IMG/VR virus record: IMGVR_UViG_3300032257_000008
Span: 1 to 64,000 of that record
DNA length: 64,000 nucleotides
Direction: 5' to 3' (one strand)
Source of the DNA: a virus
Lineage: Duplodnaviria; Caudoviricetes
In this document: piece by piece, positions 42,167 through 42,702 of the stretch
Layout of the letters: each line of letters starts with the position of its first letter
Position numbering within the stretch: the stretch's first letter is position 1
Position numbers and translations under genes: made by a program
Notes under the pieces: generated by a model
Databases searched by the model: none
The model's input: only the letters and a program-made list of their open reading frames with translations
Told to the model about the DNA's origin: nothing

Positions 42167-42170
42167 AATT

Positions 42171-42670
42171 CTTTGATCCTTGTTAAGATGAGTAGTGTTA
42201 GCATAACGATTGGTGAGACTCCGATTGGGCAAGGATAAAGATAGGGGATGAATCATCCTCACTGTGAAAATCAGCAAGTCCGGGGCGTTACAATAGTACG
42301 GGTAATGTCCGACCACTCTAAAGAGGTGGTCTACCCTTTCACTTACTCTGGTAGGTGGAGGGGATTTTTATAAGCACTTCTGCCCGGGGCACGGGTACCG
42401 GGTTCCTCCCGTGCGGAATAACTCAAATAAACGGAGTGCTTTTAAAAATTTAATTCACCAGTTTACAATAGTCATCCCTATTGAATTTGTGGGGTGCGTA
42501 AACGGGAATAGTGGTAGTCTTTTTAAGAACTCTGTTTTCTTCCACTTAAATACGACCAAAAAAATAAGATTGCTCCCCTATTAAGGAAGCCCGCGTAGAT
42601 AGCAGTTTTGGTTCCCACACCACTTAAGTGAGTCTACATGTGGAGGGAATGTCCGGAGGGGGAGTTTTAT
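42171..42670 (+). ncRNA. Candidate large structured RNA (about 500 nt), strand inferred from context
   Basis: Non-coding 535-nt gap that is visibly GC-richer than its flanks. At least 8 stems, including 42171-83/42229-40, 42364-80/42433-49 and a pseudoknot 42383-42414. Confidence 0.55.
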
Positions 42671-42702
42671 ATTATTTTTCTCAATAACTAAGGAAATTAT
42701 CA

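What the first reader, a model, noticed from the sequence alone, without database searches (positions are those of the whole stretch)
42167..42702. ~500-nt GC-rich, densely paired non-coding island after SSB, with an H-type pseudoknot
This is the largest internal gap, has no tRNA cloverleaf and is paired almost throughout: 42171-83/42229-40, GGGGATG-AAT-CATCCTC (alternatively pairing with TCATCCCTA at 42472-80, switch-like), GGCGTTAC/GTAATGTC, CCACTC/GAGGTGG, CCCTTTCAC-TTAC/GTAG-GTGGAGGG, and a 16-bp stem 42364-80/42433-49. That stem encloses CCCGG(42383-87)-G-GCACGGG(42389-95)-TA-CCGGG(42398-402)-TTCCT-CCCGTGC(42408-14), which is classical pseudoknot order. CTCCCC/GGGGAG closes a final domain. 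The size and ornateness resemble large phage ncRNAs such as ROOL/GOLLD, but I cannot match it to a known class. This is the best candidate for an undescribed system.
Basis: partly seen in the sequence, partly recalled or inferred. Interest (0 to 1): 0.78.

Follow-up and report, generated by a model that had tools for sequence, protein, structure and literature searches.

The report
Orphan structured RNA island after SSB
A 536-base gene-free stretch behind the SSB gene of an uncultured N4-like phage most likely makes a tightly folded mRNA tail ending in a terminator, plus a small pseudoknot module. It lies where related phages keep tRNA, tmRNA or small-RNA genes, but it has no relative in any collection searched, so its fold and its job remain untested.

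Summary
The gap (42167-42702) is real, non-coding and free of tRNA, tmRNA and Rfam matches. An independent assembly carries it unchanged.

Only the 5' 290 nt is exceptional. On the + strand, 42301-42450 is the most stable of 972 windows in the 73-kb genome. Its sub-domains score z -3 to -5, and the minus strand is ordinary. The 3' 250 nt folds no better than shuffles.

The phage is N4-like (Schitoviridae). A canonical intrinsic terminator (42334-42363 plus U5) splits the island, so a single ROOL/GOLLD-like RNA is not supported.

The SSB-to-vRNAP segment is this family's RNA-gene slot:
- N4 has four tRNAs there.
- LUZ7 has the published sRNA1-3 hotspot.
- One relative has a permuted tmRNA in the same post-SSB gap, and another has two tRNAs.

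Most relatives have no gap, including one with SSB, then 67 nt, then dUTPase.

My reading is a modular island: a structured SSB 3'UTR with terminator, a pseudoknot module, and an unremarkable leader of dUTPase. No homolog turned up in phages, viral contigs, metagenomes or prokaryote genomes, so covariation cannot be tested.

Earlier notes of this scan describe similar mosaic RNA islands in other N4-like phages. Interest is moderate to low.

The parts
41420..42166 (+). N4 gp45-like SSB gene (context). Its stop codon is conserved among relatives.
   Evidence: tblastn found 459 Schitoviridae records annotated as SSB. The alignment consensus ends ...SLF, as this protein does.
42170..42241 (+). M1: a long imperfect hairpin directly after the SSB stop (CUUUGAUCCUUGU / GCAAGGAUAAAG at its base).
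   Evidence: Folded alone, z -3.36 and 0 of 200 shuffles as stable. Inverted repeat I5.
42244..42260 (+). H2: hairpin GGGGAUG-AAU-CAUCCUC (7 bp with one G-U, 3-nt loop).
   Evidence: It is the only GC-rich hairpin with a 3-nt loop in this gap.
42263..42372 (+). Predicted three-way junction. Closing helix UGUGAAAAUC/GAUUUUUAUA encloses H3 (42283-42291/42302-42310), H4 (42311-42316/42324-42331) and the terminator hairpin.
   Evidence: 42241-42372 folds at -52.1 kcal/mol, z -5.16, 0 of 200 shuffles.
42334..42369 (+). T1: an intrinsic-terminator-like site. 13-bp stem (three G-U pairs), 4-nt loop, then AUUUUU.
   Evidence: Top-ranked terminator-like site in 26000-45900. Folded alone z -4.43, and the MFE structure makes up 0.91 of the ensemble.
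42362..42451 (+). M3: a 16-18-bp AU-rich closing stem (42362-42380 / 42433-42451) around the candidate H-type pseudoknot. The 5' arm of the stem is the U-tract of T1.
   Evidence: z -3.19. Inverted repeat I1, 15 nt at 93%.
42383..42414 (+). Candidate H-type pseudoknot. S1 CCCGG/CCGGG (42383-87/42398-402), S2 GCACGGG/CCCGUGC (42389-95/42408-14), loops of 1, 2 and 5 nt.
   Evidence: The only perfect 5+7-bp pattern on the + strand of the genome. No covariation data exist.
42420..42431 (+). AACUCAAAUAAA in the A-rich strand 3' of the pseudoknot. It is identical to the conserved hairpin loop of the second island (44647-44658).
   Evidence: Local alignment of island 1 against island 2 gives p about 0.013. 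A covariance model of the island-2 hairpin does not hit here.
42452..42702 (+). The 3' part, not structured beyond chance. It holds a sigma70-like TTTAAA-17-TACAAT (42441-42469), a CUCCCC/GGGGAG closure (42574-79/42659-64) followed by a U-rich run, and the dUTPase ribosome-binding site AAGGAAA.
   Evidence: z -0.89 and -1.46. Promoter-like sites are no commoner than in shuffles. Similarity of this unit to the 5' unit is weak, p about 0.03.
42572..42590 (-). Terminator-like hairpin on the minus strand (GCUUCCUUAAUAGGGGAGC, then AAUCUUAUUUUUUU).
   Evidence: Not followed up.
42703..43272 (+). dUTPase gene (context). It follows SSB directly in the closest syntenic relative.
   Evidence: Pfam PF00692, E 1.9e-26. 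In L012 the order is SSB, a 67-nt gap, dUTPase, then a 169-aa ORF.

Best explanation
The island is a modular stretch of RNA-level elements in the RNA-gene slot of an N4-like (Schitoviridae) phage. It is not one large RNA.

(1) 42167-42369 is the structured 3' end of the replication-operon mRNA, after SSB. Four tandem hairpins (M1, H2, H3, H4) lead into a strong intrinsic terminator, T1. Inferred: this stops most transcription after the abundantly needed SSB, protects the 3' end from exonucleases, and may be released as a stable 3'UTR-derived small RNA of about 100-200 nt.

(2) 42362-42451 (M3) forms only in read-through or separately initiated transcripts, because its 5' arm is the T1 U-tract. 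It displays a GC-rich pseudoknot next to an A-rich single strand. Inferred: it is a small RNA or leader module that offers a binding surface for a protein or RNA partner.

(3) 42452-42702 is an ordinary, weakly structured leader carrying the dUTPase ribosome-binding site.

Shown: the stretch is non-coding, the fold stability is strand-specific, the terminator anatomy is canonical, and relatives use this slot for RNA genes. Inferred: the transcript ends, any processing, and all functions.
For: Family and slot:
- The phage is N4-like: primase, Sak4-like ATPase, gp45-like SSB, dUTPase, RuvC-like resolvase, and a 3158-aa vRNAP on the opposite strand, in a 73,023-bp genome with direct terminal repeats.
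- N4 has four tRNAs in a 1.5-kb gap between gp47 and gp48.
- LUZ7 has sRNA1-3 in the orf69-orf70 gap, between SSB gp65 and vRNAP gp73 (PMC9163698).
- L030 has a 547-nt post-SSB gap holding a permuted tmRNA (RF04321, 127 bits). There the SSB stop is followed by two hairpins, each with a U-run, ahead of the tmRNA; I read these by eye from the sequence and did not scan or fold them.
- L075 has an 817-nt post-SSB gap holding tRNA-Gln and tRNA-Tyr. L021 and L033 carry tRNA-Gly there.

Fold:
- After GC correction, 42301-42450 is the most stable of 972 windows on the + strand (z -4.29), and 42226 is also among the top four. The minus strand is unremarkable.
- Sub-domain z-scores run from -3.0 to -5.2.
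- The predicted fold has 14 G-U pairs.

Terminator and coding:
- T1 is the best terminator-like site in 20 kb.
- No coding signal in any frame or genetic code.
Against: - There is no transcript data.
- There is no homolog, so no structure here is supported by covariation or even by conservation.
- The closest syntenic relative manages with a 67-nt SSB-dUTPase spacer. The island is therefore dispensable for the phage type and could be a recent, perhaps functionless, insertion.
- M1-H4 lack U-runs, and 170 nt of hairpins ahead of a terminator is more than mRNA protection would need.
- No promoter for M3 or for dUTPase could be identified. Sigma70-like sites are not enriched, and this clade's RNAPII promoters are unknown.
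Confidence: 0.5

Rival explanations
1. Cis-regulatory operator or leader. The pseudoknot plus the adjacent A/U-rich strand is bound by a phage protein, for example the SSB itself as in T4 gene 32 autoregulation. Together with the T1 read-through choice, this would set how much of the downstream dUTPase-RuvC operon is expressed.
For: - A 1-nt L1 crossing a 7-bp S2, followed by an A/U-rich unstructured strand, resembles the T4 gene 32 operator (own knowledge).
- The T1 U-tract has two alternative partners, 42263-42272 and 42440-42449. That is the anatomy of a termination/read-through choice.
- LUZ7 shows stepwise read-through of terminators across gp64-gp69 (PMC9163698).
Against: - The element lies downstream of SSB and about 290 nt upstream of the dUTPase start, not at a ribosome-binding site.
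- The intervening 250 nt is not unstructured A/U.
- Relatives with the same SSB-dUTPase synteny lack it.
- No riboswitch or leader family matches.
Confidence: 0.15
2. Decaying or neutral insert. The island is the remnant of RNA genes (tRNA or tmRNA, as in L030 and L075) or of foreign DNA that landed in a permissive slot. Only T1 would still function.
For: - The interval from T1 to dUTPase (about 310 nt) matches in position the tmRNA gene of L030.
- The island is absent from most relatives.
- The 3' half folds like random sequence.
- There is no homolog anywhere.
Against: - No residual tRNA, tmRNA or permuted-tmRNA signal appears even at E<=10.
- Relaxed ARAGORN gives only an implausible sub-threshold call overlapping T1.
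- Decay should erode structure, not leave the most stable strand-specific fold in the genome.
Confidence: 0.17
3. One large (~500 nt) ornate structured ncRNA of the ROOL/GOLLD/OLE type.
For: - The whole island folds at z -3.59 with outer pairing.
- No family matches, which would fit a new class.
Against: - There is an internal canonical terminator.
- The 3' 250 nt is not structured beyond chance.
- ROOL and GOLLD give no Rfam hit at E<=10.
- There is no conservation.
- Comparable slots in relatives hold small separate RNAs.
Confidence: 0.06
4. DNA-level signals: hairpin promoters for the phage RNA polymerases (H2 in particular), or a replication origin.
For: - LUZ7 early and middle promoters are GC-rich DNA hairpins with 3-4-nt loops, and transcription starts at a G about 13-15 nt from the hairpin centre (PMC9163698).
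- H2 has a 7-bp stem and a 3-nt loop, with G at +12 and +14 (42264, 42266). That is exactly where the predicted three-way junction begins.
Against: - No other copy of an H2-like hairpin or of its flanks exists in the genome.
- The folds rely on 14 G-U pairs and are specific to the + strand.
- There are no iterons.
- The cumulative GC skew shows no turn here.
Confidence: 0.07

Closest known systems
LUZ7 orf69-orf70 intergenic small-RNA hotspot (sRNA1-3; Putzeys et al. 2022, PMC9163698)
   Same: Both are gene-free stretches of about 400-540 nt on the SSB strand, between SSB and the vRNAP gene of an N4-like phage. Both have no coding potential, contain terminators, and have no known function.
   Different: There is no sequence or covariance-model similarity (L018 was among the loci searched). 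The LUZ7 gap lies 1.7 kb after SSB, not directly after it. LUZ7 has transcript evidence; this island has none.
tRNA/tmRNA slot of Schitoviridae: N4 gp47-gp48 tRNA cluster, permuted tmRNA of L030, tRNA-Gln/Tyr of L075
   Same: Same genomic slot and strand. In L030 and L075 the RNA genes sit in the very same post-SSB gap (547 and 817 nt), and these two phages also share the island-2 RNA with this phage.
   Different: This island has no tRNA or tmRNA features.
Intrinsic terminators and 3'UTR-derived small RNAs of bacteria (CpxQ or SroC type; own knowledge)
   Same: A GC-rich hairpin plus U-run ends an mRNA, and a structured 3'UTR lies upstream that could be released as a stable RNA.
   Different: Processing and function are untested. 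A 200-nt 3'UTR with five hairpins is unusually elaborate for a phage operon.
T4 gene 32 autoregulatory mRNA pseudoknot (own knowledge)
   Same: A compact H-type pseudoknot with a very short L1, next to an SSB gene and followed by an A/U-rich strand.
   Different: The T4 element is in the 5' leader of gene 32 and nucleates SSB binding toward the ribosome-binding site. Here the element is 220 nt downstream of the SSB stop, and homology is neither known nor testable.
ROOL, GOLLD and OLE large ncRNAs (Rfam)
   Same: A large non-coding stretch in a phage genome.
   Different: No Rfam match at E<=10. An internal terminator splits the stretch, half of it is unstructured, and it is not conserved.

Membership tests
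ROOL / GOLLD / OLE / HEARO / raiA (large bacterial and phage ncRNAs in Rfam 15) | Match to the family covariance model | tested here: not met
   No match at gathering score over 64 kb. Over 41900-43000 at E<=10 only four chance hits appeared, to eukaryotic families.
tmRNA, including permuted and alpha-type (RF00023, RF01849, RF04321) | tRNA-like acceptor and T-arm ending in CCA, plus a tag reading frame | tested here: not met
   ARAGORN found none in the window or genome, nor with thresholds relaxed to 70-80%. Rfam gave none at E<=10. The same tools find the tmRNA in relative L030 at 127 bits.
tRNA | Cloverleaf passing ARAGORN or the RF00005 model | tested here: not met
   The single relaxed-threshold call (42337-42419) has mismatches in the acceptor and anticodon stems and overlaps the T1 hairpin.
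Intrinsic (factor-independent) terminator | Stable GC-containing hairpin immediately followed by a U-run, at the end of a transcription unit | tested here: met
   42334-42363 has a 13-bp stem and 4-nt loop, then AUUUUU. Folded alone z is -4.43. It is the best such site in 20 kb and lies 168 nt after the SSB stop. Actual termination was not measured.
H-type pseudoknot (structural class) | Two stems in 5'S1-5'S2-3'S1-3'S2 order with sterically feasible loops | tested here: met
   5-bp S1 and 7-bp S2, all Watson-Crick, with loops of 1, 2 and 5 nt.
H-type pseudoknot (structural class) | Evidence that both stems form: covariation or probing | not testable with these tools
   No homolog exists in any collection searched. 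The nested MFE of -33.8 kcal/mol is comparable to my estimate for the pseudoknot.
T4 gene 32-type SSB autoregulatory operator | Pseudoknot in the 5' leader of the SSB gene, upstream of an unstructured A/U tract reaching the ribosome-binding site | tested here: not met
   The SSB gene has only a 22-nt upstream spacer. The pseudoknot lies downstream of SSB and about 290 nt before the next start codon.
Island-2 RNA family (44541-44797; homologs in L030 and L075) | Match to the covariance model of its conserved central hairpin | tested here: not met
   Model R3 with filters off hits only 44616-44685 in the window (E 5e-26) and nothing in 42167-42702 at E<=10. Only the 12-17-nt string is shared.
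N4-like intergenic RNA slot (positional class) | Non-coding, on the SSB strand, between SSB and the convergent vRNAP gene | tested here: met
Riboswitch or ribozyme classes in Rfam | Match to any aptamer or ribozyme model | tested here: not met

The most novel reading that the evidence does not exclude
M3 (closing stem, GC-rich H-type pseudoknot and exposed AACUCAAAUAAA strand) is a functional small RNA. It shares a displayed recognition sequence with the conserved, covariation-supported island-2 RNA 2 kb downstream. The two would bracket the dUTPase-RuvC operon and recruit the same host or phage factor. That would make them members of an undescribed set of RNA effectors that this N4-like clade keeps where other phages keep tRNA or tmRNA genes.
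Probability: 0.15. Interest if true: 0.6.

Novelty: new member of a known kind. Interest (0 to 1): 0.33.

Why it matters
N4-like phages run three RNA polymerases in sequence. They repeatedly carry unexplained non-coding RNA islands between the replication genes and the virion RNA polymerase gene, and the LUZ7 small RNAs in that slot still have no known function. This island adds a case where the slot, directly after SSB, holds the most strongly folded RNA in the genome and no tRNA. Two clade-mates hold a tmRNA or tRNAs at the same spot, which points to cassette exchange of RNA genes. If the modules are expressed, they are candidates for phage RNAs that act on host translation or on defence. 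As it stands, this is a singleton with no evolutionary support, so its value is as a lead for transcriptomics and not as a discovery.

Tried and rejected
- Hidden coding. Stop-to-stop ORFs under table 11, TAG=Q and table 4 reach at most 92 codons, with no PHROG hits. The 57-aa GTG ORF at 42411-42584 has no ribosome-binding site. Rejected.
- Known RNA families. Rfam at gathering score and at E<=10, ARAGORN at default and relaxed thresholds. Nothing.
- Homolog searches, all negative:
  - blastn against 50,697 phage records at E 1e-5 and at E 10 gave only chance matches of about 25-28 nt.
  - Related viral records.
  - nhmmer of five modules against 95 N4-like loci, about 870 kb.
  - Single-sequence covariance models R1 and R2 against 837 kb.
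  - Pattern scans of viral contigs (the one hit, L098, is unrelated GC-rich sequence), of metagenome contigs twice and of prokaryote genome contigs.
- Closer relatives for covariation. The best SSB relative among 5.8 billion proteins is 61% identical. The only other contigs carrying this SSB are the same phage, and the one read is 100% identical.
- Paralogous copies in the genome. None.
- Internal duplication, with the 5' unit related to the 3' unit. Three short motifs recur in the same order, but the alignment is weak, p about 0.03. Left open.
- M3 as a homolog of the island-2 hairpin. Rejected by covariance model.
- Phage targets complementary to the shared 12-mer. None convincing.
- H2 as a hairpin promoter. 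No second copy of the motif exists.
- Origin of replication. No iterons and no turn in the skew.
- The 497-nt 'gap' in L023 turned out to be covered by a 189-aa ORF, so it is not a parallel case.

Full report
**What the window is.** The window is 64 kb of a 73,023-bp virus record with direct terminal repeats. Gene content and order are those of N4-like phages (Schitoviridae):
- primase, 38499-40658
- AAA_24/Sak4-like protein, 40669-41397
- a 248-aa protein, 41420-42166, whose tblastn matches are 459 Schitoviridae records annotated as single-strand DNA-binding protein (N4 gp45 type), all below 60% identity
- dUTPase, 42703-43272
- RuvC-like resolvase, 43272-43781
- a 3158-aa ORF on the opposite strand, 45269-54745, in the position of the virion RNA polymerase

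. The finding is the 536-nt gap between SSB and dUTPase.

**Observation.** The gap is real and is the largest in the genome.

It is non-coding. Stop-to-stop frames reach at most 92 codons under table 11, TAG=Q or TGA=W, and none hits PHROGs. SSB ends as its homologs do.

An independent ENA assembly carries the same 6.7 kb with no difference. The sequence is therefore not an assembly artefact, but this also means it offers no variation to analyse.

ARAGORN finds no tRNA or tmRNA in the window or the genome. Rfam 15 gives nothing at gathering score, and only four chance hits to eukaryotic families at E<=10.

A scan of both strands of the whole genome for a perfect 5-bp plus 7-bp H-type arrangement with similar loops finds this one alone on the + strand and two on the minus strand. 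Such a pattern is therefore expected in a given 536-nt stretch with a probability of only about 0.01-0.02.

**How much of it is structured.**
- The whole island folds at -167.3 kcal/mol, z -3.59, on the + strand, against z -1.38 on the minus strand.
- In a GC-corrected scan of the genome with 150-nt windows, 42301-42450 (+) is the most stable of 972 windows (z -4.29) and 42226-42375 is among the top four. The minus strand is ordinary there.
- Folded separately: 42167-42245 z -3.36; 42241-42372 z -5.16; the hairpin at 42334-42363 z -4.43; 42360-42455 z -3.19. By contrast 42450-42570 gives z -0.89 and 42560-42690 gives z -1.46.
- GC is 0.47 in 42241-42455, 0.39 in the 3' part and 0.363 genome-wide.
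- The predicted fold of the 5' part uses 14 G-U pairs. These would be mismatches on the other strand or in DNA, so the signal is at RNA level on the + strand.

'Paired almost throughout' and 'GC-rich' are therefore true of the first 290 nt only.

**Anatomy.** Five hairpins follow the SSB stop:
- M1, 42170-42241
- H2, 42244-42260
- H3, 42283-42310
- H4, 42311-42331
- T1, 42334-42363, followed by AUUUUU

T1 is a textbook intrinsic terminator and the top-ranked terminator-like site in 26-45.9 kb.

The U-tract of T1 can pair either with UGUGAAAAUC at 42263-42272, closing a three-way junction, or with UUUUAAAAAU at 42440-42449. In the second case it becomes the 5' arm of the 16-18-bp stem that encloses the pseudoknot (module M3, 42362-42451).

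For the pseudoknot itself, ViennaRNA gives -15.6 kcal/mol for the closing stem alone, -28.6 with S2, -24.0 with S1, and -33.8 for the best nested fold. Adding both stems and a usual pseudoknot penalty gives a comparable value. That last figure is my estimate and was not computed by a tool. The pseudoknot is plausible and sterically sound but not demonstrated.

The 3' 250 nt contains a sigma70-like TTTAAA-17-TACAAT. Such sites are fewer in this region than in shuffles (62 against 83), so this one carries no weight. The 3' part also has a long-range CUCCCC/GGGGAG closure before a U-rich run, and the dUTPase ribosome-binding site. Three short motifs recur in the same order in the two halves, but the alignment is only marginally better than shuffles, p about 0.03.

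**Context in relatives.** Among about 90 loci of N4-like relatives (SSB 41-59% identical), most have 0-100 nt after SSB. The closest syntenic one, L012, has SSB, a 67-nt gap, dUTPase, then a 169-aa ORF. The island is thus an insertion in this lineage or a loss in the others.

The same position holds RNA genes in several relatives:
- L030 has a 547-nt post-SSB gap with a permuted, alpha-proteobacterial-type tmRNA (tag ANDNSYAPVAMAA; RF04321 at 127 bits). By eye, two hairpins each followed by a U-run precede it; I did not scan or fold them.
- L075 has an 817-nt gap with tRNA-Gln and tRNA-Tyr.
- L021 and L033 have tRNA-Gly there.
- N4 itself has a 1.5-kb CDS-free stretch between gp47 and gp48 with four tRNAs.
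- In LUZ7 the 398-nt orf69-orf70 gap lies between SSB (gp65) and vRNAP (gp73). It is the published 'intergenic transcription hotspot' giving sRNA1-3 late in infection, one of them probably by processing (PMC9163698). The same paper reports stepwise read-through of terminators across gp64-gp69.

The segment from SSB to vRNAP is therefore the RNA-gene slot of this family, and it is populated by small, separate, exchangeable RNA genes. Notes from earlier runs of this scan on other N4-like genomes say the same. I used them as leads. The N4, LUZ7, L030 and L075 facts were checked here, and the LUZ7 checks came before I saw those notes.

**Search for homologs of the island.** None was found by any of these:
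- blastn against 50,697 phage records, at E 1e-5 and at E 10
- related viral records
- nhmmer of five modules against about 870 kb of N4-like loci
- single-sequence covariance models of 42241-42372 and 42360-42455 against 837 kb
- pattern scans of viral contigs, metagenome contigs and prokaryote genome contigs

No SSB closer than 61% exists among 5.8 billion proteins.

**A link to the second island.** The same nhmmer run showed that the other gap, 44541-44797, does have homologs: L030:10672-10882 (E 8e-32) and L075:5852-6075 (E 9e-22). With only three sequences, 14 of 59 predicted pairs show compensatory changes. These include the long-range helix GCUGAUUA/UAAUCAGC and the hairpin UUCCGUU/AACGGAA, whose 12-nt loop AAACUCAAAUAA is conserved.

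The string AACUCAAAUAAA, with GGGUUCC before it and CGGA after it, recurs in island 1 at 42420-42431, in the A-rich strand just 3' of the pseudoknot. A local alignment of the two islands beats 987 of 1000 shuffles. However, about five shared 12-mers with the rest of the genome are expected by chance, and five such places (four on the + strand, one on the minus strand) were seen besides the island-2 match. A covariance model of the island-2 hairpin, run with filters off, does not hit island 1. The shared motif is suggestive, not established. I found no complementary target in the phage.

**Interpretation.** The evidence fits a modular island best (confidence 0.5):
1. a structured 3'UTR of the SSB operon ending at T1, possibly released as a stable small RNA
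2. a pseudoknot module that exists only in read-through or independently started transcripts
3. an ordinary leader of dUTPase

Rivals:
- a protein-binding operator or read-through switch, 0.15
- a decaying insert or dead RNA gene, 0.17
- one large ornate RNA, 0.06
- DNA-level signals such as a hairpin promoter at H2, 0.07. LUZ7 promoters are GC-rich hairpins with a G start about 13-15 nt downstream, and H2 has G at +12 and +14. But no second copy of the motif exists, and the fold evidence is RNA-level.

The remaining weight is unassigned.

**Novelty and score.** The class is already documented: non-coding RNA islands in the SSB-vRNAP slot of N4-like phages, function unknown. The sequences here belong to no family, but they are a singleton without conservation. 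I file the island as a new member of a known kind, interest 0.33. The most novel reading still open is that M3 and the conserved island-2 RNA are effectors sharing one recognition loop. I give that 0.15.

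Noticed in passing
window 44541-44797 (+); L030:10672-10882; L075:5852-6075: The second non-coding island is a conserved structured RNA of about 230 nt. It has two homologs in other N4-like contigs (E 8e-32 and 9e-22). With three sequences, 14 of 59 predicted pairs show compensatory changes, including the long-range helix GCUGAUUA/UAAUCAGC. 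A hairpin loop AAACUCAAAUAA is conserved, and the RNA ends in a terminator-like hairpin plus U7 (44749-44770). No Rfam match. A pattern scan of IMG/VR found only these members.
   Followed up: partly
L030:7508-7920 (IMGVR_UViG_3300032212_000138): An N4-like phage contig carries a permuted, two-piece alpha-proteobacterial-type tmRNA gene directly after its SSB gene. The tag is ANDNSYAPVAMAA. RF04321 scores 127 bits and RF01849 scores 69 bits. This hints at an alphaproteobacterial host for that relative.
   Followed up: partly
L075:2868-3684: An 817-nt post-SSB gap holds tRNA-Gln and tRNA-Tyr. About 640 nt of it remains unexplained non-coding sequence.
   Followed up: no
window 43195-43340 (+): The dUTPase 3' end and RuvC-like 5' start region is the second most stable + strand fold in the genome. 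GC-corrected z is -3.8, and the 146-nt fold gives z -3.70 with 0 of 200 shuffles as stable. It includes a 10-bp hairpin around the RuvC start. This may be translational coupling or control.
   Followed up: partly
window 42572-42590 (-): A terminator-like hairpin on the minus strand lies inside the island (8 pairs, then AAUCUUAUUUUUUU). A weak promoter-like site sits at 42703-42674 (-). A short antisense RNA is possible.
   Followed up: no
whole genome G000 (73,023 bp): This N4-like phage has no tRNA or tmRNA gene at all, unlike N4 (four tRNAs) and several relatives.
   Followed up: yes
L100:8113-9633 (phage N4, between gp47 and gp48): The 1.5-kb CDS-free stretch of N4 holds four tRNAs, which cover only about 320 nt. 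The remaining roughly 1.2 kb has no annotation and no Rfam match at E<=0.01.
   Followed up: no
L021, L033, L084; L031, L065 (post-SSB gaps): Post-SSB gaps of different relatives share blocks of 50-90 nt at 79-96% identity while the rest differs. This fits exchange of small cassettes in this slot.
   Followed up: no
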